DNA of 59,702 bases from Alphaproteobacteria bacterium. GTDB lineage: Bacteria; Pseudomonadota; Alphaproteobacteria; CALKHQ01. The notes beneath the pieces were generated by a model. The model was not told where the DNA came from. It was given only the letters and a program-made list of their open reading frames with translations, and did not search any database. This document shows, one piece after another, positions 35,403-59,702 of this stretch (the stretch's first letter is position 1; each line of letters begins with the position of its first letter). Location of the stretch: positions 1 through 59,702 of the forward strand of contig JBHJOG010000155.1 in NCBI GenBank assembly GCA_050329975.1, read 5' to 3'. A program made the translations under genes and the position numbers.

Positions 35403-35431
35403 GGCGCGCCTGCAAAGGATCCAAGCATTTC

Positions 35432-43654: not shown

Positions 43655-43691
43655 CGGATGCGCCGGCGTTCGCCCGCGGGCGGGCAGAATG

Positions 43692-43863: not shown

Positions 43864-43879
43864 ACGTGCCGTCGCACGT
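43864..43879. promoter_or_regulatory. Palindrome ACGTGC-CGTC-GCACGT (operator or leader hairpin) upstream of hcp
   Basis: 6-bp arms, further flanked by CCTGA...TCAGG (43860-43894). Lies 67 nt upstream of the hcp ATG. Confidence 0.3.
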
Positions 43880-43945
43880 GAACGGGCGGTCAGGCGCACC
43901 TAAACCAGGGAGCCGCATCCCCAGCGGGCAGCAAGGAGTCCAAAG

Positions 43946-44428
43946 ATGGCTATCTATTTGAAGCTTGGCGATATCAAGGGCGAGGTCACGGCCCAAGGGT
44001 TTGCGGACCAGATCGAGTGCCACTCGATGCAGTTCGGCGTCGGCCGCGCGATCCACACCCCGGTCGGCGCGGTTACAAACCGCGAAGCGTCTGCCCCCTC
44101 GATCAGCGAGGTGACGCTGTCCAAGGCGCTCGACAAGTCGTCGATCGCGCTGTTCACCGAGGCCGTGGTCGGCAAGAAGGAAAAGGCGCTCGCCGCCGAG
44201 ATCACCATCACCAAGACCGGTGGCGACGCTCTGGAGAAGATCGCCGTCTACAAGCTGACCAACACCATGATCAGCGGCTACAGCGTCAGCACCGGCGGCG
44301 ACCGGCCGAGCGAGTCCCTGTCGTTGAACTTCACCAAGATCGAGATCGAGGTGACCAGCGAAGCGGCGGCCGGCGATGACGGTTCGCCCGTCCGTGCCTC
44401 CTACGACCTCGCCACGGCCAAGCCCTGA
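43946..44428 (+). CDS. hcp: T6SS tube protein Hcp (TssD)
   Basis: MAIYLKLGDIKGEVTAQGFADQIECHSMQFGV, about 160 aa, AAGGAG Shine-Dalgarno. Confidence 0.95.
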   Translation: MAIYLKLGDIKGEVTAQGFADQIECHSMQFGVGRAIHTPVGAVTNREASAPSISEVTLSKALDKSSIALFTEAVVGKKEKALAAEITITKTGGDALEKIAVYKLTNTMISGYSVSTGGDRPSESLSLNFTKIEIEVTSEAAAGDDGSPVRASYDLATAKP

Positions 44429-44564
44429 TCCGGCCGCCTGCGAACATCGGGAGCGGACGGCAGACCGGGCGACCGGTCGGGCGTATGACCATCCGCTCCT
44501 CTGGCACCATCCGCGTCCCGTCGCCCCTCCGGCGACCCGGGGCGCGGAACTTCGGTTATTGCGG

Positions 44565-46604: not shown

Positions 46605-46608
46605 CGCG

Positions 46609-47214
46609 GTGACCGCGATGGCAACGCAGATCGGGCCCTTGAAGAAGATCACCGTCCCGGCCGCCGAGCCGCTGGTCGAGACCGCCCAGCTGTCGGACCC
46701 GGCGCGCGCGCTGCTGGCCCCGAAGATGACCGTCCGCGCGCTGCTGGCGGCACTGGTCGACGCCGGGCTGCTCGGCGATGCGCTGCGGCTGCTCGCCTAT
46801 GCGCTGCCGAAGCGGGAAGCGGTCTGGTGGGCCTGCCAGTGCGCCCGCCAGGCCCAGCCCGAGACGCCGCTGGACCCGGACATCGAGATCATTCAGGCCA
46901 GCGAGGCCTGGGTCTACCGGCCTACCGACCAGGCCCGCCGCGCGGCCATGGAGCTGGCGATGAAAACCGGGTTCGACCGTGCAGCCCACTGGCTGGCGGC
47001 CGCGGCATTCTGGAGCGGCGGCAGCATCGCGCCGCCCGAGGCACCGCCGGTAGAGCCTGCGGAGAGCCTGACCGGCAACGCGGTGGTCGGCGCCGTCCTG
47101 CTGGCGCTGGTCCAGCCCGAGCCCGGCGCTGCCGACAAGAAGCGGCGGCGGTTCCTGGCGCAGGCGCTGGACATCGCCGACGGCGGAGACGGGCGCAAGG
47201 TGGCGACGACCTGA
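46609..47214 (+). CDS. Uncharacterised T6SS-locus protein (about 200 aa, helical, no signal peptide or TM)
   Basis: GC3-rich ORF filling the vgrG-tagH gap (GTG 46609 or ATG 46618). Features AVWWACQCAR, AAHWLAAAAFWSGGS, and a charged tail. I recognise no T6SS core or adaptor family (not DUF4123, DUF1795, DUF2169 or PAAR-like by eye). Confidence 0.6.
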   Translation: MTAMATQIGPLKKITVPAAEPLVETAQLSDPARALLAPKMTVRALLAALVDAGLLGDALRLLAYALPKREAVWWACQCARQAQPETPLDPDIEIIQASEAWVYRPTDQARRAAMELAMKTGFDRAAHWLAAAAFWSGGSIAPPEAPPVEPAESLTGNAVVGAVLLALVQPEPGAADKKRRRFLAQALDIADGGDGRKVATT

Positions 47215-47286
47215 TCCGGCGGCACCGCCCCCGCGACGGGCAGCGACCGGACGAATGGCTATAGTGACGGGACATGCGAGAGCGAC

Positions 47287-48867
47287 ATGACACTGCGACT
47301 GACGATCATCAGCCCGCCCAAGGTGCCGCCCGGCTTTGACCAGAGCATCGTGGTCGACCGGGCTGCAGTCTCGATCGGCAGGGCTCCCGAGAACGACCTC
47401 GTGCTCGCGGATCCCGCGCGCCTCTTGTCGAAGCGGCATTGCACGATCGCGGCCGCGGGCGGCGGTTACACCCTGACCGACACCAGCGCCAACGGCGTGT
47501 TCGTCAACGGATCGCCCCAGCGGGTGCCGCGCGACCAGACCGTGCCGATCGCGCCCGGCGACGTGATCCAGGTCGGCGATTACGAGCTGCAGGTCGATGC
47601 CGTCGCCCGGCCGGGCGCCCAGCCCGCTCGGGCCGCTCCGCCGGAGCCCACCCGGGTCGGCGGTTTCGCCCCGCCGCTCCCCGACGAGGACGAACTGGCG
47701 CCGGACGAGGAGTTCGACCTCGGCTTCGCGCTGGGCGACGACGACGACAATCTCGGCGTATCCGGCAGCAATCCCTTTGCCGATGCCGCACGCCTGCTGC
47801 GCGAGACCTCGGTGCGCGACCGCGCGGACTTCGGCCTGGGCAACCTCGACTTCGACGATGCCGGGTCGGGCGGCGGCGGGGAATCGCTGCTCCCGCACGG
47901 GCCCGAAGGCACGCTCTACGCCAAGCCAACGCCGGGCGGCCGCGCCGCGCCTGCCCGCCCCCTGCCGCGGGATGCGCTCGATCCCTTCGGCGGCGGCGAT
48001 TCGGTCGACGACTGGGATGCGCCCCCGATGCCCGACACCGTGCCGTCGGAGCAGGCGCAATTCACCCCGCCGGTGGCGCGGACGCCGCCTGCCGAGCCGG
48101 TCGGCGGCGGGATTCCGGACGACTGGGACCTGGAGGAGACGCCGTTCGCCGCACCGCCGCCGGCCGCCTCGCCGTTCTTCGATCCGCCGCCGGCGACCCG
48201 GCCGGCGGACGTGCCGGTGCCGAGGCCGCAGGCCGCTGCCCCGGTGCAGCAGCCGGCTGGCCCGGCGCCGACCGGCGTCGCCGATGCGGCCGCGCTTCGC
48301 GCCTTTCTGGCCGGCGCGGGGCTGGGCTCGATGCGGCTGTCGGACAGCGAGGCGGTGCGGCTGCTCGCCGATGCCGGCCGCGCCTTCCGCGCGCTGGTGG
48401 CCGGCCTGCAGGAGGCGCTGGCAACCCGTGCCGAGATCAAGGAGGAACTCGACGTCTCTCGCACCATGATCGGCGCGACGAGCAATAACCCGCTCAAGCT
48501 GGAGCTGACGACCGACGAGGGCGTGGTGGCGATGCTGCGGCAGCCGGGGCCGGGCTTCCTGCCGCCGGTCGAGTCCATCAGCCAGGGCTTCCGCGACGTC
48601 CAGGCGCATCAGATGGCGACCATGGCGGCCATGCACCTGGCCCTGCGCCGGCTGCTGGAGAAGTTCGATCCGGAGAAGCTGTCGAGCCGCATGGATCAGT
48701 CGTCCCTGCTCAACTCGCTGATGCCCGGCGCCCGCAAATCCAAGTACTGGGAGGTCTATTGCGACTTCTACGCCTCGATCGCGGGGGATGCGGAATCCGA
48801 GTTCCATGAATTCTTTACAAAAGAGTTTTCAAAAGCGTATGAAGAACAATCGCGTAAACTCAAGTAA
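47287..48867 (+). CDS. tagH: T6SS FHA-domain protein TagH (Fha/ImpI)
   Basis: N-terminal FHA (VSIGRAPENDLVLADPARLLSKRHCTI...GYTLTDTSANGVFVNG). Long Pro/Ala/Asp-rich linker. Conserved TagH C-terminal domain (NPLKLELTTDEGVVAML...YWEVYCDFY). Confidence 0.9.
   Translation: MTLRLTIISPPKVPPGFDQSIVVDRAAVSIGRAPENDLVLADPARLLSKRHCTIAAAGGGYTLTDTSANGVFVNGSPQRVPRDQTVPIAPGDVIQVGDYELQVDAVARPGAQPARAAPPEPTRVGGFAPPLPDEDELAPDEEFDLGFALGDDDDNLGVSGSNPFADAARLLRETSVRDRADFGLGNLDFDDAGSGGGGESLLPHGPEGTLYAKPTPGGRAAPARPLPRDALDPFGGGDSVDDWDAPPMPDTVPSEQAQFTPPVARTPPAEPVGGGIPDDWDLEETPFAAPPPAASPFFDPPPATRPADVPVPRPQAAAPVQQPAGPAPTGVADAAALRAFLAGAGLGSMRLSDSEAVRLLADAGRAFRALVAGLQEALATRAEIKEELDVSRTMIGATSNNPLKLELTTDEGVVAMLRQPGPGFLPPVESISQGFRDVQAHQMATMAAMHLALRRLLEKFDPEKLSSRMDQSSLLNSLMPGARKSKYWEVYCDFYASIAGDAESEFHEFFTKEFSKAYEEQSRKLK
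48814..48843 (+). promoter_or_regulatory. Candidate internal sigma70-type promoter (TTTACA-N18-TATGAA) in the AT-rich 3' end of tagH
   Basis: The last roughly 20 codons of tagH switch to A/T-ending codons (ttt aca aaa gag ttt tca aaa ...). The hexamers at 48814-48819 and 48838-48843 lie about 80 nt upstream of tssJ. Confidence 0.3.
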
Positions 48868-48919
48868 CGAATAGATTTGGCCGCCGGTGGACTTTAGCGA
48901 AACCCATATCGGCAAGCGG

Positions 48920-49468
48920 ATGTCTTCCGCAGTCGCCCGTCTGGATGTGCGCCGGGCCAGTCTGGCGGCGGCGCTGGCGCTGGCGCTTCCCGGGCTTGCC
49001 GGCTGCGCGGACGATCCGCCGGCCGGGCCGCCGCCGATCGAAGTCACCGCCAGCGTCGAGGCGTCGCCCTTCCTCAATCCCGACCGCACCAACCGCCCGT
49101 CGCCGGTGGTGGTGGTGGTCTACGGACTCGCCGACGACGCCAAGTTCCAGAATGCCGGCTTCTTCGAGCTCTACGAGCAGGAACAGGCGACGCTGGGCGA
49201 TGCGATCAAGAGCCGGCAGGAGTTCATCATCGCGCCGGGCGACATCAAGGACCTCGACCTTGAGATCGATCCCGCCGCCACCTTTCTGGCGGTCCTGGGC
49301 GCGTTCCGCGATATCGACAACGCCCGCTTCAGCGCGATCACGCCATTGCCGGGGGGCGGCGACCCGCTGGCGATCCAGATCAAGCTGCAGAGCAATTCGA
49401 TCGTGCTGGTGGCGCCGGAAGCGCCGGTGGTGGTCGACGATGCGGCGGAATCCGGAGATGGGTCGTGA
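48920..49468 (+). CDS. tssJ: T6SS outer-membrane lipoprotein TssJ (VasD)
   Basis: Lipobox LPGLAGC after a signal peptide. TssJ motifs SPFLNPDRTNRPSPVVVVVYGL and AVLGAFRDIDNARF. The ORF-track GTG 48887 is an alternative start. Confidence 0.85.
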   Translation: MSSAVARLDVRRASLAAALALALPGLAGCADDPPAGPPPIEVTASVEASPFLNPDRTNRPSPVVVVVYGLADDAKFQNAGFFELYEQEQATLGDAIKSRQEFIIAPGDIKDLDLEIDPAATFLAVLGAFRDIDNARFSAITPLPGGGDPLAIQIKLQSNSIVLVAPEAPVVVDDAAESGDGS

Positions 49469-49545
49469 CCGGCACCCGATCGCGGGGCAGGCTGCGCGGT
49501 GGCGCGCCAATTCCACACGCACCGAAAATGAATTAGGGTTCATGG

Positions 49546-50880
49546 ATGTCGTGGGACAATAAAGTCGTCTGGTCGGAGGGCATGTTCCTGCGTCCGCAGC
49601 ATTTCCAGCAGCACGACCGCTATGTGGAGCGCCTGGTGCGCGGGCGCCTGGCCAGCATGGCGCCCTATCGCTGGGGCGTATCGGAACTGGCGATTAACCG
49701 GTCCCTGCTCGAGACCGGGAGCTTTGCCGTCACCTCCTGCCGCGGCGTGCTGCCGGACGGCACGCCGTTCAGCATCCCGGAAGACTGCGAGCACCCGGTG
49801 CCGCTGGAGCCGTCGGAGAACGTCCGCGACCGGGTGGTCTACCTGTGCCTGCCGGTGCGCCAGCCCGGGGGCTACGATTTCGCCGCCAAGGCCAACGAGG
49901 ATGCGATCACGCGCTACCGCACCTCGTCGTTCCGGGCGACCGATTCGGTCGTCGGCTCGGAAACGATGGCCGAACTCGAGATCGGCAAGCTGGACCTCAG
50001 CTACGGTCTGCACGGCACCGAGACGGCGGGCTATGTCCGGGTCGGGCTGGCCCGCATCCAGGAGGTCGGCGCGGACCGCAAGATCAAGCTGGACGAGCGC
50101 TACATTCCGCCGTGCCTCGACTGCAGCACGTCGCCGGCGCTCTCCGGCTACATGACCGAGCTGCAGGGGCTGTTGCACCAGCGGGTTACCGCCCTGGCCG
50201 GGCGGGTCAGCGAGGGCGGCACCAAGGGCGTGGCCGAGATCGCCGACTTCCTGTTCCTGCTGACTCTCAACCGCAATCAGCCGCTGGTCAGCCATCTCGG
50301 CAGCTGCGCCGACCTGCATCCGGAGACGCTCTACCGGGTGCTGGTGTCGATGGCCGGCGAGATGACGACCTTCACCGAGGCCGGCAAGCGCCCGCCGGAC
50401 TTTCCCGTATACAATCACGACGACCTGGAAGGAACGTTCCAGCCGGTGGTCGCCACGCTGCGCCGCTCCCTGAGTGCGGTGCTGGAGCAGACCGCGATCG
50501 CGATCCCGCTGCAGGAGCGCAAGTACGGCATCCGCGTCGGCCAGATCGAGGACCGAAGCCTCCTTACCTCGGCCAGCTTCGTACTTGCGGTGCGCGCAGA
50601 GGCGCCGGCCGAACAGATCCGCCGGCATTTCCCGGCCCAGGTCAAGATCGGGCCGGTGGAGCAGATCCGCAACCTGGTCAACGCCGCGCTGCCGGGGATA
50701 ACGGTGCGCCCGCTGCCGGTGGCGCCGCGGCAGATCCCCTATCACGCCGGCGTCACCTATTTCGAGCTCGAGCAGCGCGGCCAGTTCTGGAAGCAGCTCT
50801 CCCAGTCCGGCGGGCTCGCCATCCACCTCGCCGGCGACTTTCCGAAAGCGGAAATGGAGCTGTGGGCGATCAGGGGCTAG
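49546..50880 (+). CDS. tssK: T6SS baseplate protein TssK (ImpJ)
   Basis: MSWDNKVVWSEGMFLRPQHFQQHDRY N-terminus, 444 aa. Confidence 0.95.
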   Translation: MSWDNKVVWSEGMFLRPQHFQQHDRYVERLVRGRLASMAPYRWGVSELAINRSLLETGSFAVTSCRGVLPDGTPFSIPEDCEHPVPLEPSENVRDRVVYLCLPVRQPGGYDFAAKANEDAITRYRTSSFRATDSVVGSETMAELEIGKLDLSYGLHGTETAGYVRVGLARIQEVGADRKIKLDERYIPPCLDCSTSPALSGYMTELQGLLHQRVTALAGRVSEGGTKGVAEIADFLFLLTLNRNQPLVSHLGSCADLHPETLYRVLVSMAGEMTTFTEAGKRPPDFPVYNHDDLEGTFQPVVATLRRSLSAVLEQTAIAIPLQERKYGIRVGQIEDRSLLTSASFVLAVRAEAPAEQIRRHFPAQVKIGPVEQIRNLVNAALPGITVRPLPVAPRQIPYHAGVTYFELEQRGQFWKQLSQSGGLAIHLAGDFPKAEMELWAIRG

Positions 50881-50883
50881 CCG

Positions 50884-52218
50884 ATGACCGATGCCGACCC
50901 CTTCGCCGACTACGGTGAAACGGAAACGACCATCATCCGGCCCAGCCCCGGCGGCAGGCGGGCGGCTGAGCGGCTGCGCGCGGCCCAGCCGGCCGCGGCC
51001 CCGCTGGCGCGCCAGCCGAGCATCAACCCGCTGGTGACCGAAGCCTCGCCGCTGCTCAGCCTGATCAACCGCATTCGCAACACCGCCCGCCACGACAATG
51101 TCGACCAGCTGCGCAGCCAGGTGATCGACGAGATCAAGCAGTTCACCCGGCGCGCCATCTCGGCCGGCATCGAGCCGAAGGTGGTCGGGGCCGGGCAATA
51201 CGCACTCTGCGCAACCGTCGACGACGTGGTGCAGAACACGCCCTGGGGCAGTGCCTCCAGCTGGTCGAAGCGCGGCATGGTCACCACCTTCCACCGCGAA
51301 GCCTGGGGCGGCGACCGCTTCTACACCCTTCTCGACTACATGCAGCGCGATCCGGAGCGCAACCAGCATGCGCTGGAGCTGATGTACCTGTGCCTGGCGC
51401 TGGGGTTCGAGGGCCGGCTGCGGGTGCTGCCGAACGGCGCCTCCGAGCTCGCCCGAATCCGCGAGGCGCTGCACCGGCTGATCCGCCGCCGTCGCGGCGA
51501 CTACGAGCGCGAGCTGTCGCCGAACTGGCGCGGCGTCGTCACCGCGCGACGCGGCGCCAAGGCCGTGGTGCCGCTCTGGGTGGCCGCTCTGATCGGGCTC
51601 GGCATCGCGCTGGCGGCGTTCCTGGTGCTGCGCTTCCTGCTCAACAGCGAGAGCGACGTGACGTTTCGCGACCTGTTTCGCCTGCCGCCGCAGGGCGAGG
51701 TGGCCCTGGTCCGGCCGCAGCGGACCGAAGCGCCGCTGGAGATCGGCGCGGCGAGCCCACCGGCGCAGGCACCGCCCCCGCCCGGCAACTACGACATTCT
51801 CGACGATTACCTGCAGCCGGTCCCCGGCGGCCCGATCGAGCTGCTCGGCGACAACCGGCGCGTCATCATCCGGCTGGGTACCGACGGCATGTTCCGCAGC
51901 GGCAGCGCCACCATCGAGCAGGAGTTCGAGCCGATCCTGGCCGAGGTGGCCGGCGGGCTGCGTGAGGTCACCGGCACGATCCGGGTGATCGGACACACCG
52001 ACAGCGTGCGCATCAGCACCGCGCGCTTCCCCTCGAATGTCGAGCTGTCGGAGGCGCGGGCAGAGGCGGTGGTCGAGATCCTGTCGCGCTACCTCAACGG
52101 CACCGACCTGGAATCGGTCGGCCTCGCCGATGCCGATCCGGTGGTGCCCAACGCACAGACGGTGGCCGACCTGGCGAAGAACCGCCGGGTCGACATCGAA
52201 GTGCTGGCGCCAAGGTAG
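50884..52218 (+). CDS. tssL: T6SS membrane-complex protein TssL (DotU) with a C-terminal OmpA/MotB-like peptidoglycan-binding domain
   Basis: DotU region (NPLVTEASPLLSLI...YALCATVDDVV...LELMYLCLALGFEGR). One TM (VPLWVAALIGLGIALAAFLVL). OmpA-like end (IRVIGHTDSV...SNVELSEARAEAV...NRRVDIEV). Confidence 0.9.
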   Translation: MTDADPFADYGETETTIIRPSPGGRRAAERLRAAQPAAAPLARQPSINPLVTEASPLLSLINRIRNTARHDNVDQLRSQVIDEIKQFTRRAISAGIEPKVVGAGQYALCATVDDVVQNTPWGSASSWSKRGMVTTFHREAWGGDRFYTLLDYMQRDPERNQHALELMYLCLALGFEGRLRVLPNGASELARIREALHRLIRRRRGDYERELSPNWRGVVTARRGAKAVVPLWVAALIGLGIALAAFLVLRFLLNSESDVTFRDLFRLPPQGEVALVRPQRTEAPLEIGAASPPAQAPPPPGNYDILDDYLQPVPGGPIELLGDNRRVIIRLGTDGMFRSGSATIEQEFEPILAEVAGGLREVTGTIRVIGHTDSVRISTARFPSNVELSEARAEAVVEILSRYLNGTDLESVGLADADPVVPNAQTVADLAKNRRVDIEVLAPR

Positions 52219-52223
52219 CCGCC

Positions 52224-55200
52224 ATGCTGTCCCTGCTCGGCCGAGTCATCAAGTCGGGGTGGTTCTGGTCCTTCGTCGGCGTCCTGCTGCTGTGCCTGAT
52301 GATCTGGTTCGCGCTCGGCGCGATCGGCTTCGGCGGCGTCTACCCGTTCGAGGACCCGCTGTACCGGCTGGCGGCCATCCTCGTCGTCGTCATCATCTAC
52401 TTCCTGTTCGTCTTCATCTCCATGCTGCGCTCTCAGCGCGCCAATCGGAAGATGGTCGGGGAGCTGGACGTCGCGGGTGCCGCCGCCGTCTCCAGCGAAG
52501 AGCAGGAGATGACGGCGCAGGAGGTGGCGACCCTGCGCGAGCGCATGCGCGAGGCGATGGGCCTGCTGCGCAAGGCGAAGTTCGGCCGCGGCTTCGGCCG
52601 CCGCTATCTCTACCAGCTCCCCTGGTACATCCTGGTCGGCCCGCCGGGGTCGGGCAAGACAACGGCGCTGGTCAAGTCCGGGCTCCGCTTCGTGCTCGCC
52701 GACAAGCTCGGCGGCGAAGCGGTGCGTGGAGTCGGCGGCACGCGCAATTGCGACTGGTGGTTCACCGACGAAGCGGTCCTGATCGACACCGCCGGCCGCT
52801 ACACCACCCAGGACACGCGGTCCGCGGTCGATACCGGCGGCTGGCACGGATTCCTCGATCTGCTGCGGCGCAACCGGCCGCGGCAGCCGATCAACGGCGT
52901 CTTCATCGTCATCGCGATCAACGAAGTGATGGCCATGGACGACGCGGCGCGCGCCGAGCATGCGAGGATCATCCGGACACGGATCAACGAACTGCATGAG
53001 CGGCTGCGCCAGCGCTTTCCGATCTACGTGCTGCTGACCAAGTGCGACCTGGTGGCCGGTTTCATCGAGTTCTTCGACGAACTCGGCGGCGAGGAGCGGC
53101 AGCAGGTCTGGGGCATGACCTTTCCGCTCGACGGCGACCGCAATGTCGAAGGCACGGCGGCCGGCTTCAGCCGCGAATTCGACCTGCTGGTCGACCGGCT
53201 GAACCAGCGGTTGGTCGACCGTATGCACCGCGAGGTGGACATCGAGCGACGCTCGCTGGTCTACGGCTTCCCCGCCCAGATGGGGTCACTGCGCGACCTG
53301 CTGCAGGAGTTCCTCGACGCCGTGTTCCGGCCGAGCCAGTTCGAGGAACGGCCGATGCTGCGCGGAGTCTACTTCACCAGCGGCACCCAGGAGGGAACGC
53401 CGATCGACCGCCTGATGGGCGCGCTCGCCGCGCGCTTCGGGGTCAGCCGCAGCACGATGCCGGCGTTCAGCGGCGGCGGCCGGTCCTATTTCCTGACGCG
53501 CCTGTTGCGCGAAGTCGCCTTTCCGGAGGCCTATATCGCGGTCGCCCGCTCACCGCGCGAGCGGCGGCGGATCTGGGTGCGCCGGACCGGCTATGCGGTG
53601 GTGGGCCTCGTCGCAGCGGCAGCACTGGCCGCCTTCGGCCTCAGCTTCGTCGGAAACCAGCAGCTGATCGCCGAGACCGAGCAGCAAATCGACGCCTACG
53701 GCGCCGCGCTCGCCTCGGTGCCCACCAGCATGGTGGACGATACCGATTTTGCCCGGACCAGCGGCCTGCTCGACCGCCTGCGCGCCCTTCCGGCCGGCTA
53801 TGACGTCGACGTCGACTCGCCGCCGCTGGACCTGACCTTCGGCCTGTACCAGGGAGACAAGCTGCACGACCAGGCGGTCGGGGCCTATCTTCGCGGTCTC
53901 AACAAGATGCTCGCCCCACGCCTGTTCCTGCACCTGGAGGACAAGCTGCGCAGCAACCTCGGCGCGCAGGACAGGCTCTACAACTATCTGCGCGTCTACC
54001 TGATGCTGGGGAACACCGGCGACTCCGACCCGGCCCTGATCAGGAGCGTGATGGCGGACGACTGGGGCGCGCTCTACCCGGGGGACGACAACGCCGGGCT
54101 GCGCAGCCGGCTTGCGGCCCACCTCGACGTTCTGCTCGCCAATCCGGACTATGACTTCCCGCTCGACACCGGGCTGGTACAGCAGGCCCGGCAGGCCCTG
54201 GTCAGCATCCCGCTGGAAGGTGAGGCCTATGAGGCGATCAAGGGCAGCGACCCGGCCCGCAACCTGCCGACCTGGCGCGTGATCGACCATATCGGCGCCC
54301 AGGGCGACCGGGTGATGGTCCGGCGCTCCGAGGGCACACCGCTCACGGCTGGCGTGCCCGGCCTCTATACCTATCGCGGTTTCAACGAGGTGTTCCTGCC
54401 GGCGCTCGATGCGATCTCGAGCCGGGTGGCCAGTCAGAACTGGGTGCTCAGCGGAGACGCCAGCGACGCCGACCGGGCCGCGGCCCTGGAGACCTTCCGC
54501 CAGGGCGTCACCCAGTCCTATCTCAACGACTATGTCGAAGAGTGGGATCGGTTGCTGAACGACGTCACCATCCGGCCGATGGAGACGCTGGATGAGGCGC
54601 GCACGGTGCTGAACATCCTGTCGAGCCCGAACTCGCCGCTGCTGACCTTCCTCACCGACGCGGCGCAGGAGACGACGCTGGCCCGGCCGCAGCCGGCCGC
54701 GCCGGCGAGCGCTCCCGGCGACGCTGCGCCCGCAGCCGCGGACGGCGCGGCGCCGCCCGCCCCGGCGGGGGACGACGGCGGGCTGCTCGGCCCCGGCACG
54801 GCGCCTGCGCCGGCTGGCCCGTTGCCGGGCCAGTATGTGAACGACCAGTTCGCGGACCTGCACGCGATGGTTGGCGGCGCCGACGGCCAGCCGCCGGCGC
54901 TGACTGGACTGCTGGCCGACTTCCGGGACCTCTACCGGGGGCTGAATGCGCTCCAGACCAGCGACGGCACGATCCCGCCCGACTTCGCCGCCGCGCTCCA
55001 GAAGGTGAACGAGGTCTCCGCGACCCTGCCGGAGCCGATCGCCGGCGTGGTCGCCGAGGTGATGGCGGCCAGCGCGACAGTCGGCGCCGGCGGTGCGCGC
55101 AGCCAGCTGCGGCAGAGCTATGACACGACGGTCCTGCAAACCTGCGAGCAGGCGCTCGCCGGCCGCTATCCGTTCGATCCGTTGAGCCGGGAGGACATCA

Positions 55201-55799
55201 GCCTGGTCGCATTCGCCCAGGTGCTGGGTCCGGGCGGGCTGCTGGACAGCTTCTTCCAGCAGAATCTGGCGGCGCATGTCGACATGACGAAGAAGCCGTG
55301 GACGTGGAAGCCGGCCTCCGTCAGCCTGAACCTTTCGAATGCCGCCCTGCAGCAGTTCGAACGGGCCGACGAGATCCGGAAGGTGTTCTTTGCTGCCGGC
55401 CCGACCCCGTCGATCCAGTTCGTCGCGACGCCGGACGTCATGTCGGAGACGATCAACCGGGCGGTGCTGACCGTCGATGGCCAGGTCCTGCGCTATTCGT
55501 TCGGGCCGAACGCGCCGGTAGCGATGGTCTGGCCGGGGCCGGACGGTCCACCCGGCGTGATGCTCGAGCTCACGCCACCGATGACCGGCCAGCCGAACGG
55601 CGTCAGCTACCAGGGTCCCTGGGGCTGGTTCCGCATGCTCGACGTGGCTGATGTTCAACCCGGCTCGACCTCTGATAAACTGAATGTCACGATTGCTGCA
55701 GGCGAGCGGTCCCTGACCGTCGAGGTCAGGGCCGAAGGGGTGACCAACCCGTTCGTCATGACCGAGTTGAAGGAGTTCCGGTGTCCGACCACGCTTTGA
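52224..55799 (+). CDS. tssM: T6SS membrane-complex protein TssM (IcmF)
   Basis: 1191 aa. N-terminal TM helices, Walker A GPPGSGKTT, IcmF-related domains, and an Ala/Pro-rich insert near aa 830-870. Confidence 0.95.
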   Translation: MLSLLGRVIKSGWFWSFVGVLLLCLMIWFALGAIGFGGVYPFEDPLYRLAAILVVVIIYFLFVFISMLRSQRANRKMVGELDVAGAAAVSSEEQEMTAQEVATLRERMREAMGLLRKAKFGRGFGRRYLYQLPWYILVGPPGSGKTTALVKSGLRFVLADKLGGEAVRGVGGTRNCDWWFTDEAVLIDTAGRYTTQDTRSAVDTGGWHGFLDLLRRNRPRQPINGVFIVIAINEVMAMDDAARAEHARIIRTRINELHERLRQRFPIYVLLTKCDLVAGFIEFFDELGGEERQQVWGMTFPLDGDRNVEGTAAGFSREFDLLVDRLNQRLVDRMHREVDIERRSLVYGFPAQMGSLRDLLQEFLDAVFRPSQFEERPMLRGVYFTSGTQEGTPIDRLMGALAARFGVSRSTMPAFSGGGRSYFLTRLLREVAFPEAYIAVARSPRERRRIWVRRTGYAVVGLVAAAALAAFGLSFVGNQQLIAETEQQIDAYGAALASVPTSMVDDTDFARTSGLLDRLRALPAGYDVDVDSPPLDLTFGLYQGDKLHDQAVGAYLRGLNKMLAPRLFLHLEDKLRSNLGAQDRLYNYLRVYLMLGNTGDSDPALIRSVMADDWGALYPGDDNAGLRSRLAAHLDVLLANPDYDFPLDTGLVQQARQALVSIPLEGEAYEAIKGSDPARNLPTWRVIDHIGAQGDRVMVRRSEGTPLTAGVPGLYTYRGFNEVFLPALDAISSRVASQNWVLSGDASDADRAAALETFRQGVTQSYLNDYVEEWDRLLNDVTIRPMETLDEARTVLNILSSPNSPLLTFLTDAAQETTLARPQPAAPASAPGDAAPAAADGAAPPAPAGDDGGLLGPGTAPAPAGPLPGQYVNDQFADLHAMVGGADGQPPALTGLLADFRDLYRGLNALQTSDGTIPPDFAAALQKVNEVSATLPEPIAGVVAEVMAASATVGAGGARSQLRQSYDTTVLQTCEQALAGRYPFDPLSREDISLVAFAQVLGPGGLLDSFFQQNLAAHVDMTKKPWTWKPASVSLNLSNAALQQFERADEIRKVFFAAGPTPSIQFVATPDVMSETINRAVLTVDGQVLRYSFGPNAPVAMVWPGPDGPPGVMLELTPPMTGQPNGVSYQGPWGWFRMLDVADVQPGSTSDKLNVTIAAGERSLTVEVRAEGVTNPFVMTELKEFRCPTTL

Positions 55800-56590
55800 A
55801 GCTGATCGACCGGCCGGCTTGCGGCTATTTCGGCAAGGTCCCGCTCACCGGCGACTTCATTCGGCATACCCTGCCCGAGGGCTTCCTGCGGCCGTGGGAC
55901 CTGTGGCTGCAGACCGCGATCGAGCGCAGCCGGACCGACCTCGAGGAGCATTGGCTGAAATACTACCTGACCAGCCCGGTCTGGCGGTTCGCGCTCAGCG
56001 CCGGCATCTGCGGCGAACGGCCGGCGGTCGGCGTGATGATGCCGAGCGTCGACCAGGTGGGCCGCTACTTCCCGCTGTGCCTGGCCGCGGTGCTGCCGCA
56101 TGAGGTGCGCCCTGCGATCGTGGCTGCGACCGAGGGCGAGTGGTTCTGGAAGGCCGAATGCACCGTCCGCGCCTCGCTCGAGGACGGGTTCGAGCTTCGG
56201 GTACTGGACGCGGCGGTGCGCGACATCGGCCTGCCGGCAGCCGGCGAAGGCCCCATCCCGCCGCGTCCGCCGCAGGGCCGCCGGCCGGCACGGCCGGCCG
56301 AGGCCAACGTCCGCTACGGGTGGGATTCGCTGCGTGTCGACCTGGGGGGCGACGACCTGCACCTGGTCTACCCCGACTTGCTCGACCGGCTGCTGGCGCG
56401 CAGCCTCGACCCGTACAGCCTATGGTGGACGTTGGGTTCGGAAGACGTGGATCCAGTCCTCATCGCCTGCCGCGGCCTGCCGCCGGCCGACCAGTTTGCC
56501 GCCTTCCTCGACGGTGCCTGGGAGCGGTGGGGCTGGGGCGAGACATCCGGCCGCCCGTCCGGCGCCGGATTCCTCGTTGGCGTGCGCTAG
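55781..56590 (+). CDS. tagF: T6SS-associated protein TagF (ImpM/DUF2094)
   Basis: GTG start overlapping the end of tssM. GYFGKVPLTGDFIRHTLP...WDLWLQ...SPVWRFAL...MPSVDQVGRYFPL. Confidence 0.85.
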   Translation: MSDHALKLIDRPACGYFGKVPLTGDFIRHTLPEGFLRPWDLWLQTAIERSRTDLEEHWLKYYLTSPVWRFALSAGICGERPAVGVMMPSVDQVGRYFPLCLAAVLPHEVRPAIVAATEGEWFWKAECTVRASLEDGFELRVLDAAVRDIGLPAAGEGPIPPRPPQGRRPARPAEANVRYGWDSLRVDLGGDDLHLVYPDLLDRLLARSLDPYSLWWTLGSEDVDPVLIACRGLPPADQFAAFLDGAWERWGWGETSGRPSGAGFLVGVR

Positions 56591-56599
56591 GACCGCCCA

Positions 56600-57400
56600 G
56601 TGACATCCAGCGAACAGTCCGTGGGCGACCGGCCGGCGCGGCCATCGACCGCCTTCCACTTCCGGTCGAGCGGGCTGACCCATACCGGGCTTGTCCGCAA
56701 GCATAACGAGGACGCCTTCCTCGACAGCGGGTCGATCGGCCTGTGGGCGGTGGCCGACGGCATGGGCGGGCACGAGTCGGGGGACTATGCGAGCCAGCTG
56801 ATCGTCGATACGCTCGCCGCGACCAAACCGCCTGAATCCGCCAGCGCCCTGCTGCACGATGTGAAGCACCGGCTGGACCAGGTCCACCTGGCGCTACAGA
56901 GCGTGGCTGCATCGCGGGGCGAGGGAAGCGTCATCGCCAGCACGGTGGTGGTGCTGATGGCGCATGGGGGCCATTACGCTTGCGTATGGGCCGGCGACAG
57001 CCGAGCCTACCGCTGCCGCGGTTCGGTGCTGCAACAACTGACCAAGGACCACAGCTATGTGCAGTCCCTGGTCGACCAGGGCGTGCTGCAGCCCGAGCGC
57101 GCGGCGACGCATCCCTATGCGAACGTGGTGACGCGCGCGGTCGGCACCGACCAGGGCCTCGACCTGGAGCTGATCACCGGCGAGCTCGCCCCGCACGACC
57201 GCTTCCTGCTGTGCAGCGACGGGCTGAATCGGCAGGTCGGCGATCCGGAGATCGCGACGGTGCTCGCCAGCGCCGGCTGCGACCAGGCCGCGACCACGCT
57301 GGTCGATCTGGCGCTGCAGTCGGGTGCGCGCGACAACGTGACGGCGCTGGTGATCGACGTGCAGCCGGCGACCGTCATGATCGACGCGGAGCCGGTCTGA
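56600..57400 (+). CDS. pppA: PP2C-family Ser/Thr phosphatase PppA
   Basis: THTGLVRKHNEDAF, VADGMGGHESGDYAS, LLCSDGL and ARDNVTALV. Confidence 0.9.
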   Translation: MTSSEQSVGDRPARPSTAFHFRSSGLTHTGLVRKHNEDAFLDSGSIGLWAVADGMGGHESGDYASQLIVDTLAATKPPESASALLHDVKHRLDQVHLALQSVAASRGEGSVIASTVVVLMAHGGHYACVWAGDSRAYRCRGSVLQQLTKDHSYVQSLVDQGVLQPERAATHPYANVVTRAVGTDQGLDLELITGELAPHDRFLLCSDGLNRQVGDPEIATVLASAGCDQAATTLVDLALQSGARDNVTALVIDVQPATVMIDAEPV

Positions 57401-57455: not shown

Positions 57456-58334
57456 ATGGGATTGCGAACCAAGTTCAACCTGGTCCTGGTGGCCGCCTTC
57501 ATCATCGGGCTGGGGCTGGCTGGGCTACTGTCGTTGCAGATCGTCGAGCGCAACGCCAAGGAAGAGGTGGTGCAGAATGCCGAGATCATGATCGAGGCAG
57601 CCAGCGCCATCCGCCGCTACACCTCGACCGAGATCAGCCCGCTGCTGACGGTGCAGATGGACCAGTACGGCACTTTCCTGCCGCACATCGTTCCCTCCTT
57701 CGCCGCCCAGCGCAATTTCGCCACCGTCGCCGAGCGCTTTCCCGACTACAGCTACCAGGAGCCGGCGCTGAACCCGACCAACCCGGACGACCTGGCTGAC
57801 CCGTTCGAGGCCGACATCATCAACCGGTTCCGGGCTGACGCCGCACTGGAGGAACTGGTGTTCGACCACGAATCGGAGGAGGGGCGCTACCTTGTGCTCG
57901 CCCGCCCGATCCGGGTCACCTCCGAGAGCTGCCTGGTCTGCCACAGCACGCCGGCGGCGGCTCCCCAGCCGATGATCGACATCTACGGCACCGAGAACGG
58001 CTTCGGCTGGCAGATGAACGAGGCGGTCGCCGCGCAGGTGGTACGGGTGCCGATGTCGGTGCCGCTCGACCGGGCGATGAATGTTTTCACGGTTTTCATG
58101 ATGGCGCTTGCCAGCGTGTTCATCGTGGTGTTGATCGTGATTAACCTCGTCCTGCAGTATGTCGTGATAAAACCGGTCCTGCGGATGTCCGACATCGCCG
58201 GCCGGGTGAGCATGGGTGAGGCCGACGTGCCGGAATACGTCCGCACCGGCAAGGACGAGATCGCCTCGCTATCGGTGTCGTTCAACAGGATGCGGCGCAG
58301 CTTGCAAAACGCCATGAAGCTGCTGGACGAATGA
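57456..58334 (+). CDS. Membrane sensor: DUF3365/Tll0287-like periplasmic domain with a CxxCH haem-c motif + HAMP, no output domain
   Basis: TM1 (LVLVAAFIIGLGLAGLLSL). Periplasmic region of about 175 aa containing SESCLVCHSTP. TM2 (VFTVFMMALASVFIVVLIVINLVL). HAMP (KPVLRMSDIAGRVSMGEADV...GKDEIASLSVSFNRMRRSL). Stop follows about 15 aa later. Confidence 0.8.
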   Translation: MGLRTKFNLVLVAAFIIGLGLAGLLSLQIVERNAKEEVVQNAEIMIEAASAIRRYTSTEISPLLTVQMDQYGTFLPHIVPSFAAQRNFATVAERFPDYSYQEPALNPTNPDDLADPFEADIINRFRADAALEELVFDHESEEGRYLVLARPIRVTSESCLVCHSTPAAAPQPMIDIYGTENGFGWQMNEAVAAQVVRVPMSVPLDRAMNVFTVFMMALASVFIVVLIVINLVLQYVVIKPVLRMSDIAGRVSMGEADVPEYVRTGKDEIASLSVSFNRMRRSLQNAMKLLDE

Positions 58335-58362: not shown

Positions 58363-59702
58363 GTGAACAATCCAGGCGGCAGCACGATCGAGGCGATTGG
58401 CCGGTACCGCATCGAGTCAGTCCTCGGGCGCGGCGCCATGGGCGTCGTCTACAAGGGCTACGACGAAGGCATCGACCGCTTCGTCGCGATCAAGACGGTG
58501 CACCGCAACCTGCTTTCCGGCGAAGAGGGCGCGGATTGGCTGCAGCGGTTCCGCCGCGAGGCGCGCGCGGCCGGCCGCTGCCTGCACCAGAACATCGTCA
58601 CCATCTTCGAGTTCGGCGAGCAGGACGGCATGCCGTACATCGTGATGGAGTTCGTCGAGGGCCGCGAACTCAGCGACATCATCCGCGGCGCCGCGCGGGT
58701 GGACCGCAAACAGGCGGTCGACATCGTAAGCCAGGTTCTCGACGCGCTGAACTACGCGCACGCCAACGGCATCGTCCACCGGGACATCAAGCCGGGCAAC
58801 ATCATCATCCTGAAGGACGGCACCGTGAAAGTGACCGACTTCGGCATCGCGCGAATCGATTCGACCAGCATGACAGCCCACGGCTCGGTGGTCGGCACGC
58901 CGAGCTACATGTCGCCGGAGCAGTTCACCGGCGGCGAGATCGACCGCCGGTCAGACATCTTCTCCACCGGCGTGGTGCTGTTCGAGCTGCTGACCGGGCA
59001 GAAGCCGTTTCCCGGCAAGAGCGCTACCGAGGTGATGTACAAGCTGCTCAACCACCAGCCGCCGGCGGTGACCACGCTGAACCCGACGCTGCCGATCGCG
59101 ATGAACTCGGTGGTGCTGAAGGCGCTGTCGCGCGAGCCGAACGAGCGCTTCGCCACCGCCGGCGAGTTCAAGGCGATGCTGGCCCAGGCTGCTGCCATGG
59201 CGCCGGCCGATGAGGACATGACGGTGCTGATGGCGACGGTGCCCGCGCCTGCCGCCGCCCCGGCGCCGACCGAGAGCTCCGGCATCCACGATGAGGCGAC
59301 GCTCCGCCTGGTCTCCGACGCGCTGGCCTATCACATCGGGCCGGTGGCGAAAGTGGTGGTCGAGCAGGCGGCCAAGCAGTCGCCGAACGTCGAAAGCCTC
59401 TACGACACGGTGGCGACCAGCATCAACAACCCGGCCGAGCGCAACGCATTCCTGCAGCGGCGGACCGCGCCGCAGAGCCAGCCGGCCGCCGCGCCCCAGC
59501 CGGCGGCGGCCGCAACGGCGCCGATCTCGGCCGACGACGTGGTCAAGATCCAGCAGGAGCTTTCGACCCATCTCGGCCCGATCGCCAAGATCCTGGTCAA
59601 GCGCGCGATGAAGGAGGTCAATGGCCGCGAGGCCCTGATCCGGGCGCTGGCCGAGCACATCCCGACCGACAAGGAACGCGCCCAGTTCTTCAGCCGGCTG
59701 GG
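58363..59702 (+). CDS. ppkA: Hanks-type Ser/Thr protein kinase (PpkA position), 3' end cut by the window edge
   Basis: Not in the ORF track because there is no stop inside the window. GTG 58363 has GAGGA 7 nt upstream. GRGAMGVVYKG, AIK, HRDIKPGNIIL, DFGIA and GTPSYMSPEQ. After the kinase domain come an Ala/Pro linker and two repeats of about 60 aa (HIGPVAKVVVEQAAK..., HLGPIAKILVKRAMK...). Confidence 0.9.
   Translation, partial: MNNPGGSTIEAIGRYRIESVLGRGAMGVVYKGYDEGIDRFVAIKTVHRNLLSGEEGADWLQRFRREARAAGRCLHQNIVTIFEFGEQDGMPYIVMEFVEGRELSDIIRGAARVDRKQAVDIVSQVLDALNYAHANGIVHRDIKPGNIIILKDGTVKVTDFGIARIDSTSMTAHGSVVGTPSYMSPEQFTGGEIDRRSDIFSTGVVLFELLTGQKPFPGKSATEVMYKLLNHQPPAVTTLNPTLPIAMNSVVLKALSREPNERFATAGEFKAMLAQAAAMAPADEDMTVLMATVPAPAAAPAPTESSGIHDEATLRLVSDALAYHIGPVAKVVVEQAAKQSPNVESLYDTVATSINNPAERNAFLQRRTAPQSQPAAAPQPAAAATAPISADDVVKIQQELSTHLGPIAKILVKRAMKEVNGREALIRALAEHIPTDKERAQFFSRL

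What the first reader, a model, noticed from the sequence alone, without database searches (positions are those of the whole stretch)
57456..58334. Output-less haem-c (CxxCH) DUF3365/Tll0287-like + HAMP membrane sensor inserted between pppA and ppkA of the T6SS
Seen in sequence: a 292-aa protein with the layout TM1, a periplasmic domain of about 175 aa with a single CLVCH motif, TM2, then HAMP. It ends about 15 aa after the HAMP, so it has no kinase, GGDEF or MCP output. It sits 55 nt after pppA and 28 nt before the ppkA GTG, on the same strand. Established knowledge: the founding member of the DUF3365/Tll0287 family is a c-type haem protein with a PAS-like fold. In the best-studied threonine-phosphorylation pathway (P. 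aeruginosa H1) the periplasmic input to PpkA is TagQRST. Nothing like TagQRST is visible between tagH and ppkA in this locus. Inference: this protein may be an alternative redox, gas or small-ligand input that gates PpkA and TagH phosphorylation, and so T6SS firing, by HAMP-mediated protein-protein contact. I am not aware of such a T6SS input module being described.
Basis: partly seen in the sequence, partly recalled or inferred. Interest (0 to 1): 0.75.

Follow-up and report, generated by a model that had tools for sequence, protein, structure and literature searches.

The report
Haem gas sensor wired to T6SS kinase
This gene encodes a membrane haem sensor, of a kind recently shown to bind nitric oxide, that is paired with the soluble kinase of a type VI secretion system and so suggests a gas or redox cue may help control when this bacterial weapon fires.

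Summary
Window 57456-58334 encodes a 292-aa protein with TM1, a periplasmic Tll0287/DUF3365 haem-c Cache domain (one CLVCH), TM2 and a HAMP, with no output domain. It lies between pppA and a Hanks kinase in a complete T6SS operon.

The gene is not a lone insertion. It is one half of a conserved two-gene unit. In 83 of 89 related loci the sensor is followed by a TM-less protein that ends in two helical repeats (Pfam DUF8082). Reverse look-ups from five repeat proteins each found a Tll0287 and/or HAMP gene alongside.

Two 2026 preprints (Crane and Zhulin labs) already describe this "CHH receptor-STK" pair in Pseudomonas azotoformans: NO binding, nanomolar HAMP-repeat binding by cryo-EM, and NO-enhanced HAMP phosphorylation. 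They state that the downstream output is unknown and do not mention T6SS.

Three points are new here:
- The pair is embedded in or beside T6SS loci at about six scattered tree positions, in different gene orders. It replaces the canonical transmembrane PpkA, which gives the pair an inferred output.
- The repeat resembles the STAC domain (Af1502), so the pair parallels archaeal Af1503/Af1502.
- The same repeat also tags cyclase, TIR and CHAT effectors.

T6SS gating itself is inferred, not shown.

The parts
57456..58334 (+). Gene for the Cache_haem-HAMP ('CHH') receptor, 292 aa: TM1, periplasmic haem-c Cache domain, TM2, HAMP, no output domain
   Evidence: ORF. Pfam PF11845 E 4.3e-39 and PF00672 E 7.7e-8. 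AlphaFold model with pLDDT 83. Foldseek matches to a WalK full-length model, Tll0287 5b82 (TMt 0.71) and the Af1503 HAMP.
57468..57536 (+). TM1 / signal anchor (aa ~5-27)
   Evidence: Hydropathy windows above 1.6. Continuous helix 3-71 in the model.
57549..58052 (+). Periplasmic Tll0287-like / sCache_haem domain (aa 32-199)
   Evidence: Pfam envelope. Foldseek hit to 5b82, E 7e-7.
57930..57944 (+). CLVCH c-type haem attachment motif (C159, C162, H163). There is no other Cys in the protein, so it lacks the axial Cys of Tll0287.
   Evidence: Sequence. C159, C162 and H163 are 100% conserved in 90 homologues.
58077..58151 (+). TM2 (aa ~208-232)
   Evidence: Hydropathy maximum of 2.97 at aa 211.
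58164..58307 (+). HAMP domain (aa 237-284). Ser252 at the AS1/connector boundary is conserved in 88 of 90 homologues and is a candidate equivalent of the phospho-acceptor Thr256 of the P. azotoformans receptor.
   Evidence: Pfam. The best PDB sequence match is the Af1503 HAMP, E 1.1e-7. Column counts. Preprint.
58363..59702 (+). Partner Hanks Ser/Thr kinase (the locus's 'PpkA'), cut by the window end about 10 aa before its stop. Soluble, with no TM segment.
   Evidence: Pkinase E 6.4e-55. VAIK41, HRD139 and DFG159 are intact. The maximum 19-aa hydropathy is 1.07, and 1.15 in the 457-aa orthologue in L001.
59293..59463 (+). Kinase C-terminal repeat 1 (STAC-like / DUF8082 helical bundle), recognition helix IGPVAKVVVEQAAK
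   Evidence: Translation and motif search. Model with pLDDT 84. The top Foldseek hit is Af1502. The homologous motif contacts the HAMP in cryo-EM.
59527..59700 (+). Kinase C-terminal repeat 2, recognition helix LGPIAKILVKRAMK
   Evidence: Same evidence as for repeat 1.
56600..57400 (+). PP2C phosphatase (PppA)
   Evidence: PP2C_2 E 4.2e-15; NCBIfam Stp1_PP2C E 1.2e-57.
55781..56590 (+). TagF
   Evidence: TagF_N E 2.2e-44.
47287..48867 (+). Fha/TagH (FHA + T6SS_FHA_C), a candidate phospho-reader or target
   Evidence: Pfam.
50884..52218 (+). TssL (DotU + OmpA). The N-terminus GETETTIIRPSPGG carries Thr13/15/16. It is a candidate kinase target by analogy with A. tumefaciens TssL Thr14.
   Evidence: Pfam. 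Translation. Literature. The target assignment is inference only.
35372..55799 (+). Rest of the co-oriented T6SS cluster: tssA, tssB, tssC, tssC', tssE, tssF, tssG, hcp, vgrG, DUF6931, fha, tssJ, tssK, tssL, tssM
   Evidence: Pfam scans.

Best explanation
The gene encodes a dimeric inner-membrane Cache_haem-HAMP (CHH) receptor. It has a periplasmic domain that carries one covalently bound c-type haem on CLVCH, two TM helices and a cytoplasmic HAMP with no enzymatic output.

Its output is the next gene, a soluble Hanks kinase. The kinase's two C-terminal helical bundles, with recognition helices IGPVAKVVVEQAAK and LGPIAKILVKRAMK, dock on the two HAMP subunits. One kinase would therefore sit on one receptor dimer.

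Binding of a haem ligand in the periplasm would change the HAMP. The ligand is most likely NO, by analogy with the characterised homologue. The change would alter phosphorylation by the tethered kinase, including phosphorylation of the HAMP itself, probably at Ser252.

In this locus the receptor-kinase pair stands in for the transmembrane PpkA of classical T6SS threonine-phosphorylation pathways. Together with PppA (PP2C), TagF and Fha it would set the phosphorylation state of Fha and/or the TssL N-terminus, and so control T6SS assembly and firing.

Shown here: the domain anatomy, the conserved sensor/repeat-protein pairing, the lack of a TM segment in the kinase, and the recurrent T6SS linkage.
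Shown by others for a homologue: haem c, NO binding, HAMP-repeat docking and NO-enhanced HAMP phosphorylation.
Inferred: that this copy behaves the same way, that its ligand is NO, and that its output is T6SS activation.
For: Anatomy.

The stand-alone ~290-aa architecture is the norm in more than 7,900 homologues.

Pairing:
- 70 of 89 loci have kinase plus repeats immediately downstream.
- 7 more have a kinase that is cut by the contig end, and L082 has a kinase domain with no repeat detected.
- 5 have the repeats on a non-kinase protein: 4 cyclases and 1 TIR.
- In L073 and L069 a kinase lies upstream instead.

Reverse look-ups from TIR-, CHAT-, unknown-N-terminus- and kinase-TPR-repeat proteins, and from a repeat-only fragment, each found a Tll0287 and/or HAMP gene alongside. 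That is 5 of 5: three intact ~290-aa sensor genes and two apparently split ones.

The kinase has no TM segment.

Sensor distances track the repeat domain (r 0.81) better than the kinase domain (r 0.69).

Published mechanism for the P. azotoformans homologue: NO koff of 6e-4 per s and no stable O2 complex; nanomolar binding, a cryo-EM structure of the two bundles on the two HAMP subunits, and NO-enhanced Thr256 phosphorylation. The motifs there (IGPLARFLVRKSLN and IGPIARIVVSRALR) match the window's.

T6SS coupling:
- The gene lies inside the operon, with gaps of 9, 55 and 28 nt and no promoter or terminator signal.
- The same order continues with DUF4280 and clpV in L001 and L002.
- T6SS linkage occurs in other arrangements in Skermanella, Caballeronia (two strains), Paraburkholderia, L044, L006, L047 and L092.
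- These cases are scattered on the sensor tree.
- This locus has Fha, PP2C and TagF but no other kinase.
- Related T6SS loci without the sensor also lack a kinase.
Against: No experiment bears on this copy.

Most sensor-kinase pairs (about 85 of 95 sampled loci) are not near T6SS genes, so the pair has other outputs elsewhere.

The preprint's authors think the receptor is unlikely to switch the catalytic domain directly. The complex forms regardless of ligand state, so how a signal would reach Fha or TssL is open.

The ligand could be something other than NO.

The sample of loci is the 80 best matches among species representatives. It is not an unbiased census. The NJ tree has no support values.
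Confidence: 0.6

Rival explanations
1. The receptor is mainly a membrane tether. It recruits the otherwise soluble kinase to the inner membrane next to the TssL/TssM complex and so replaces the TM segment of canonical PpkA. Kinase activity would be essentially constitutive, and the haem would play a structural or minor modulatory role.
For: The kinase lacks a TM segment. In P. azotoformans, binding is ATP-independent and occurs in both reduced and NO-bound states, and the authors doubt direct control of the catalytic domain. In Acidovorax citrulli the PpkA TM domain is required for foci and T6SS activity.
Against: CxxCH is 100% conserved, and the haem insert is one of the two most conserved regions of the protein. 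That is hard to explain for a mere anchor. NO does change HAMP phosphorylation in the homologue. A single TM helix would suffice as a tether.
Confidence: 0.2
2. The sensor-kinase(-PP2C) unit is a self-contained signalling module with targets unrelated to T6SS. It merely lies in or beside T6SS loci, for example as cargo of the same genomic island.
For: About 90% of sampled pairs have no T6SS genes within 10 kb. A PP2C also accompanies the pair outside T6SS loci. The only substrate demonstrated so far is the receptor itself.
Against: The gene is embedded mid-operon between tagF/pppA and DUF4280/clpV. T6SS linkage recurs at about six scattered tree positions with different gene orders. The locus has FHA and PP2C components that need a kinase, and this is the only one.
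Confidence: 0.12
3. The protein is a redox or electron-transfer cytochrome, like stand-alone Tll0287, and not a signalling receptor.
For: The founding member, Tll0287, and the P. putida stand-alone protein behave as redox proteins.
Against: It has a HAMP domain and two TM helices. It lacks the axial Cys of the redox class. It has an obligate kinase partner.
Confidence: 0.03

Closest known systems
P. azotoformans Cache_haem-HAMP (CHH) receptor WP_033902098 and its operon Ser/Thr kinase (Deshpande et al., bioRxiv 10.64898/2026.02.01.703092 and 10.64898/2026.05.25.727664)
   Same: The receptor architecture is the same: 2 TM, DUF3365 haem-c Cache, HAMP only, no axial Cys. The partner is the same kind of protein: a soluble PknB-like kinase, a linker and two helical bundles with an (I/L)GP(I/L/V)A(K/R) recognition helix. 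A PP2C lies nearby.
   Different: That system sits in a gammaproteobacterium and its output is unknown. This one is inside a T6SS operon, between pppA and the kinase. I could not obtain the P. azotoformans sequences, so the relationship rests on architecture and motifs, not on a direct alignment.
T6SS threonine phosphorylation pathway (PpkA-PppA-Fha, with inputs TagQRST in P. aeruginosa, RtkS in Serratia and TssW in Acidovorax)
   Same: A Hanks kinase, a PP2C phosphatase, an FHA protein and TagF are encoded in the T6SS cluster, and a periplasm-facing input protein acts on the kinase.
   Different: Canonical PpkA is itself a TM protein with a periplasmic domain. Here the kinase is soluble and the sensing part is a separate haem-Cache/HAMP protein. 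The input is a likely gas or haem-ligand sensor. It is not an envelope-damage sensor (TagQRST), a periplasmic regulator (RtkS) or an outer-membrane anchor (TssW).
Af1503 / Af1502 of Archaeoglobus fulgidus (HAMP-only receptor + stand-alone STAC protein; Korycinski et al. 2015; PMC4834066)
   Same: A membrane receptor whose only cytosolic part is a HAMP is genomically coupled to a small helical-bundle module with an LGPx(x)A motif. Af1503 is the best PDB match for this HAMP. Af1502 is the best PDB match for the kinase repeat by both fold and sequence.
   Different: That pair is archaeal, its sensor domain is different, its STAC is a single stand-alone domain with no effector, and its function is unknown. 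Here there are two tandem copies fused to an enzyme. Sequence-level support for homology is marginal (E about 0.1).
A. tumefaciens T6SS (TagF-PppA, PpkA, TssL Thr14 phosphorylation)
   Same: The cluster type is the same (two tssC genes, then fha...tssK-L-M-tagF-pppA-ppkA). The input to its PpkA is unknown.
   Different: No CHH receptor is described there, and TagF and PppA are fused. The architecture of the Agrobacterium PpkA was not examined here.

Membership tests
Cache_haem-HAMP (CHH) receptor | Match to the DUF3365/Tll0287 (PF11845) profile | tested here: met
   E 4.3e-39, full-length profile match 2-144 of 144. Foldseek hit to Tll0287 5b82, E 7e-7.
Cache_haem-HAMP (CHH) receptor | Conserved CXXCH haem-c motif in the helical insert | tested here: met
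   C159-L-V-C-H163, 100% conserved in 90 homologues.
Cache_haem-HAMP (CHH) receptor | Two TM helices flanking a periplasmic sensor, with a C-terminal HAMP and nothing after it | tested here: met
   Hydropathy, Pfam and the structural model.
Cache_haem-HAMP (CHH) receptor | No axial Cys (the sensor class, not the redox class) | tested here: met
   The only two Cys residues are both in CXXCH. The class is described.
Cache_haem-HAMP (CHH) receptor | Adjacent soluble Ser/Thr kinase with a dyad C-terminal recognition motif | tested here: met
   The kinase starts 28 nt downstream. Motifs lie at aa 325 and 404. No TM segment.
Cache_haem-HAMP (CHH) receptor | Covalent haem, high-affinity NO binding, and NO-enhanced HAMP phosphorylation | not testable with these tools
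   This needs biochemistry. Ser252 is conserved at the equivalent position, but without the P. azotoformans sequence the correspondence to Thr256 is inferred.
T6SS threonine phosphorylation pathway (PpkA type) | Hanks kinase, PP2C and FHA protein encoded in the T6SS cluster | tested here: met
T6SS threonine phosphorylation pathway (PpkA type) | The kinase is an inner-membrane protein with a TM segment and a periplasmic domain | tested here: not met
   Maximum hydropathy 1.07-1.15 and no TM segment. The C-terminus is two cytoplasmic helical bundles.
T6SS threonine phosphorylation pathway (PpkA type) | Kinase-dependent phosphorylation of Fha or TssL is needed for secretion | not testable with these tools
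   This needs genetics and phosphoproteomics.
STAC domain (Af1502-like) | LGPx(x)A motif between helices 1 and 2 | tested here: met
   G and P are invariant and the A nearly invariant in both repeats across 26-101 sequences. The motif is defined.
STAC domain (Af1502-like) | Small four-helix bundle fold | tested here: met
   The model has 3-4 helices per repeat, with pLDDT 84. The only meaningful Foldseek hit is Af1502 5a1q: prob 0.99, TMt 0.58, 22-24% identity.
STAC domain (Af1502-like) | Statistically significant sequence-profile similarity | tested here: inconclusive
   Af1502 is the top hit among 177,635 PDB sequences with two profiles, but E is only 0.11-0.12. No STAC profile was available for profile-profile comparison.
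STAC domain (Af1502-like) | Genomic coupling to HAMP-only receptors, or a position between an SLC5 domain and two-component domains | tested here: met
   Coupling to HAMP-only receptors holds. No SLC5 or two-component context was seen in the 101 repeat proteins scanned.

The most novel reading that the evidence does not exclude
CHH receptors and tandem STAC-like modules form a general split-receptor system. A haem-based periplasmic gas sensor ending in a bare HAMP recruits whichever effector carries the two-bundle tag: a Hanks kinase, a class III cyclase, TIR or CHAT. The system would be homologous to the long-unexplained archaeal Af1503/Af1502 pair. In several alpha- and betaproteobacterial lineages the kinase version has been recruited as the T6SS threonine-phosphorylation switch. 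NO, or another haem ligand from denitrifying neighbours or hosts, would then directly license T6SS firing.
Probability: 0.4. Interest if true: 0.8.

Novelty: new variant of a known kind. Interest (0 to 1): 0.6.

Why it matters
The authors who characterised the CHH receptor-kinase pair state that its downstream consequences are unknown. T6SS researchers list the input to PpkA as unknown outside a few model species. This locus, and its counterparts in culturable Skermanella, Caballeronia and Paraburkholderia, joins the two problems. It offers a concrete and testable output for a new class of periplasmic NO or haem-ligand sensor. It also offers a candidate chemical cue for post-translational control of a T6SS.

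The resemblance of the recognition module to STAC/Af1502 suggests that the published HAMP-bundle cryo-EM interface may explain how the classic HAMP model protein Af1503 signals. The occurrence of the same module on cyclase, TIR and CHAT proteins points to an interchangeable-effector design.

Tried and rejected
- The word-indexed homologue search with the 136-aa repeat region found only 2 proteins. It was too insensitive and was replaced by the exhaustive phmmer search.
- tblastn of the repeat region against plasmids gave one weak hit and was uninformative.
- TssW of Acidovorax was considered as a possible equivalent of the sensor. It was rejected because it is an outer-membrane protein and the PpkA there has its own TM and periplasmic domain.
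- The organism could not be identified. Cluster look-ups gave no names, and megablast against plasmids gave only 72-81% matches to T6SS core genes of Azospirillum, Pseudoroseomonas and Caballeronia.
- PADLOC gave no defence-system model for the sensor, the cyclase partner or the small upstream protein. The kinase and TIR hits were generic domain matches.
- The local Pfam copy lacks PF26309, so DUF8082 could be seen only through precomputed annotations.
- The primary STAC paper (J Mol Biol 2015) is not held.
- No fusion of the sensor with the repeat module was seen among the 101 repeat proteins scanned, so there is no Rosetta-stone evidence.
- The high conservation of HAMP AS2 was considered as evidence for the interface. 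It was discounted because part of it is the generic HAMP DEIxxL...FNxM motif, and the cryo-EM places the contact under AS1.
- The mirror-tree correlations are reported as suggestive only.
Full report
**1. Observation**

The ORF at 57456-58334 (+) is real and encodes 292 aa. Pfam gives Tll0287-like/DUF3365 at aa 32-199 (E 4.3e-39) and HAMP at aa 237-284 (E 7.7e-8). Hydropathy shows TM segments at about aa 5-27 and 208-232. The only cysteines are in C159-LV-C162-H163. The protein ends just after HAMP helix AS2.

The surrounding genes form a complete, co-oriented T6SS cluster: tssA, tssB, tssC, tssC', tssE, tssF, tssG, hcp, vgrG, DUF6931, fha, tssJ, tssK, tssL, tssM, tagF, pppA, sensor, kinase. 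No promoter- or terminator-like sites lie around the sensor gene.

An AlphaFold model (pLDDT 83) matches a full-length WalK model (TM-sCache-TM-HAMP). It also matches the Tll0287 crystal structure (5b82, TMt 0.71), the Af1503 HAMP and the GSU0935 haem-c sensor.

**2. The gene is half of a conserved two-gene unit**

More than 7,900 homologues were found. Nearly all are about 290 aa and carry the same two domains, so the output-less form is the norm for this family and not a truncation.

I fetched 89 loci and scored them by tblastn with the window's kinase domain and C-terminal region:
- 70 have kinase plus C-terminal repeats directly downstream on the same strand.
- 7 more have a kinase that is cut by the contig end, and L082 has a kinase domain with no repeat detected.
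- 5 have the same C-terminal repeats on a non-kinase protein. Four of these are class III nucleotidyl cyclases and one is a TIR protein.
- In L073 and L069 a kinase lies upstream instead. L053 has only a weak repeat-like match, on the opposite strand.
- L011 and L089 (a cyanobacterial plasmid) showed no partner. L084 is cut too short to tell.

**3. The partner module**

The window's kinase has intact VAIK, HRD and DFG motifs and no TM segment. After a Pro/Ala-rich linker it carries two repeats of about 55 aa, with helices IGPVAKVVVEQAAK and LGPIAKILVKRAMK. Precomputed Pfam calls this region PF26309/DUF8082.

An exhaustive phmmer search with the two repeats found 1,370 representative clusters. 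In the best matches the repeats lie in the C-terminal part of the protein. Among the top 150:
- 62 are kinases.
- 17 are cyclases.
- 7 are TIR proteins.
- 1 is a CHAT protein.
- The rest are short or have an unknown N-terminus.

I ran reverse neighbourhood look-ups from five repeat proteins: a TIR, a CHAT, one with an unknown N-terminus, a 1,215-aa kinase-TPR protein and a repeat-only fragment. Each found a Tll0287 and/or HAMP gene alongside. Three were intact sensor genes of about 290 aa and two appeared split. The pairing therefore holds in both directions and does not depend on the effector type.

Across 55 loci, sensor distances correlate better with the repeat region (r 0.81) than with the kinase domain (r 0.69). 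This is suggestive only.

**4. Prior art**

Two 2026 preprints from the Crane and Zhulin laboratories cover the pair.

The first (10.64898/2026.02.01.703092) redefines DUF3365 as "sCache_haem". It shows that a 2TM-Cache_haem-HAMP protein from P. azotoformans is a dimer that lacks the axial Cys. The protein binds NO with a koff of about 6e-4 per s and forms no stable O2 complex.

The second (10.64898/2026.05.25.727664) reports several results:
- These "CHH" receptors are usually next to a soluble PknB-like kinase, and sometimes also a PP2C.
- Receptor and kinase bind with nanomolar affinity.
- A 3.47 Å cryo-EM map shows the two C-terminal helical bundles (IGPLARFLVRKSLN and IGPIARIVVSRALR), each contacting one HAMP subunit.
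- NO enhances phosphorylation of HAMP Thr256.

The mechanism I inferred from genomics is thus already demonstrated for a homologue. In the window family, Ser252 occupies the AS1/connector boundary and is conserved in 88 of 90 sequences. It is a plausible equivalent of Thr256, but I could not align the P. azotoformans sequence directly.

The authors state that downstream consequences are unknown. Neither the text nor the supplement mentions T6SS, FHA, STAC, Af1503 or TIR, or any cyclase partner. No other paper in the library connects DUF3365, Cache_haem or DUF8082 with T6SS.

**5. What is new: the T6SS connection**

The same order, tssK-L-M-tagF-pppA-sensor-kinase followed by DUF4280 and clpV, occurs in two alphaproteobacterial MAGs at 69% and 61% sensor identity. 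The upstream part of that order is also seen in L044, and L092 carries a fragmented version.

Other arrangements occur elsewhere:
- Skermanella sp. TT6: tagF-sensor-kinase-tssH, with no pppA.
- Caballeronia SL2Y3 and Lep1P3: the unit lies convergent with tagF-tssM-tssL. In Lep1P3 it includes a FecR-like gene and a PP2C.
- Paraburkholderia aromaticivorans: the unit lies divergent from tssBC-hcp-tssEFG.
- L006 and L047: tssB/C lie within 10 kb.

On an NJ tree of the sensors, the eight T6SS-linked sequences included fall at six scattered positions among non-T6SS copies. The tree has no support values. This pattern favours repeated recruitment.

Related T6SS loci that lack the sensor also lack a kinase, as in Azospirillum Az39 and Pseudoroseomonas. 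Sensor and kinase therefore come and go together.

The known PpkA inputs are TagQRST, RtkS, TssW and "an unknown protein" in Agrobacterium. Canonical PpkA is itself a TM protein. Here the membrane and sensing half is a separate polypeptide.

Overall, only about 10 of 95 sampled loci are T6SS-linked. T6SS is therefore one output among several for this module.

**6. What is new: the recognition module looks like STAC**

A model of the two repeats (pLDDT 84) has one meaningful PDB match: Af1502 (5a1q), with prob 0.99, TMt 0.58 and 22-24% identity. Two sequence profiles also rank Af1502 first among 177,635 PDB sequences. The alignment falls on ELKKEIGPIAKIFLNKA, but E is only about 0.1.

Af1502 is the founding STAC domain, defined by an LGPx(x)A motif and a four-helix bundle. 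It is translationally coupled to Af1503, the archaeal HAMP-only receptor. Af1503 is also the best PDB match for this sensor's HAMP.

In CbrA, the STAC domain docks on the cytoplasmic face of the membrane domain and is proposed to relay its motions.

The CHH/kinase pair thus appears to be a bacterial, effector-bearing counterpart of Af1503/Af1502. This connection is absent from the literature I could search.

**7. Mechanism and rivals**

The most likely mechanism is that a haem ligand, probably NO, changes the HAMP conformation. That alters phosphorylation by the docked kinase and so feeds the Fha/TssL-PppA-TagF switch that controls T6SS assembly.

There are three rivals:
- The receptor is mainly a membrane tether for a soluble kinase.
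- The module is a passenger in the locus, with non-T6SS targets.
- The protein is a redox cytochrome.

The phospho-target is unknown. The TssL N-terminus (GETETTIIRPSPGG) and the long Fha linker are candidates, by analogy with Agrobacterium and Pseudomonas.

**8. Verdict**

- The receptor-kinase pair and its binding mode are already known from preprints.
- The T6SS embedding, the STAC/Af1502 parallel and the cyclase, TIR and CHAT partners appear to be new.
- All functional statements about T6SS remain inference.

Noticed in passing
L031:222-749, L003:7191-7751, L048:7927-8406 and 19 other loci: A conserved gene for a small secreted protein (about 160-186 aa) ends 34-268 nt upstream of the sensor gene in 22 loci that lack T6SS genes, mostly Competibacteraceae and cyclase-linked loci. 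The protein has no Pfam or PADLOC hit and its C-terminus reads ...QLRFWPTWP...SLMGF..AY...CK. It may be a periplasmic accessory of the receptor. The window has no homologue.
   Followed up: partly
L098:6126-6998; L097:6042-6998; L088:7135-7959: In Burkholderiaceae a gene of about 275-320 aa overlaps the start of the sensor gene, which suggests translational coupling. It is annotated as a FecR domain-containing protein in Caballeronia Lep1P3 and as hypothetical elsewhere. In L088 it is preceded by sigma and anti-sigma genes.
   Followed up: no
L013:12290-13731; L086:6942-7937: Outside T6SS loci, several alphaproteobacteria carry the order sensor, kinase, PG_binding_1 protein, PP2C. Rhodovulum has a PG-binding protein directly upstream of the sensor. 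Peptidoglycan-binding proteins may be recurrent members or targets of the module.
   Followed up: partly
L039, L043, L046, L054, L056, L057, L061, L063, L068, L085; L094:5001-8648: In Comamonadaceae, Zoogloea and related loci the kinase carries an extra stretch of roughly 230 aa between the kinase domain and the repeats. One metagenomic kinase is 1,215 aa long with TPR repeats before the repeats. The nature of the insert was not examined.
   Followed up: no
window 37256-38749 and 38811-40295: Two tandem TssC (sheath large subunit) paralogues, as in the Azospirillum Az39 locus and, from memory, the Agrobacterium locus.
   Followed up: no
window 11037-15470 (+): A 1,477-aa ORF combines a caspase (Peptidase_C14) domain with Big_9/cadherin-like repeats, PPC domains, PG_binding_1 and a MORN repeat. 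A 'caspase family protein' also lies next to the T6SS in Pseudoroseomonas cervicalis pL11-A.
   Followed up: no
window 46609-47214 (+): A DUF6931 gene sits between vgrG and fha (E 3.8e-52). It may be a T6SS accessory, adaptor or immunity gene.
   Followed up: no
window 28217-30652 and 30911-33211 (+): Two long ORFs (811 and 766 aa) upstream of tssA have no Pfam hit. In this 69% GC sequence they could be spurious, or they could be uncharacterised effectors. Opposite-strand ORFs of similar length overlap them.
   Followed up: no
L001:8944-10317: One PADLOC model of the PD-T4-6 kinase defence family (PDLC04052) aligns over nearly the whole kinase, aa 13-436, including the repeat region. The other PD-T4-6 models cover only the kinase domain. 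Some PD-T4-6-like kinases may carry the same C-terminal module.
   Followed up: no
L089 (Rippkaea orientalis PCC 8801 plasmid pP880101, 5986-6894): A cyanobacterial homologue (37% identity) has no adjacent kinase or repeat protein. It is followed by small hypothetical genes, including three identical 97-aa copies. It is an exception to the pairing rule.
   Followed up: no
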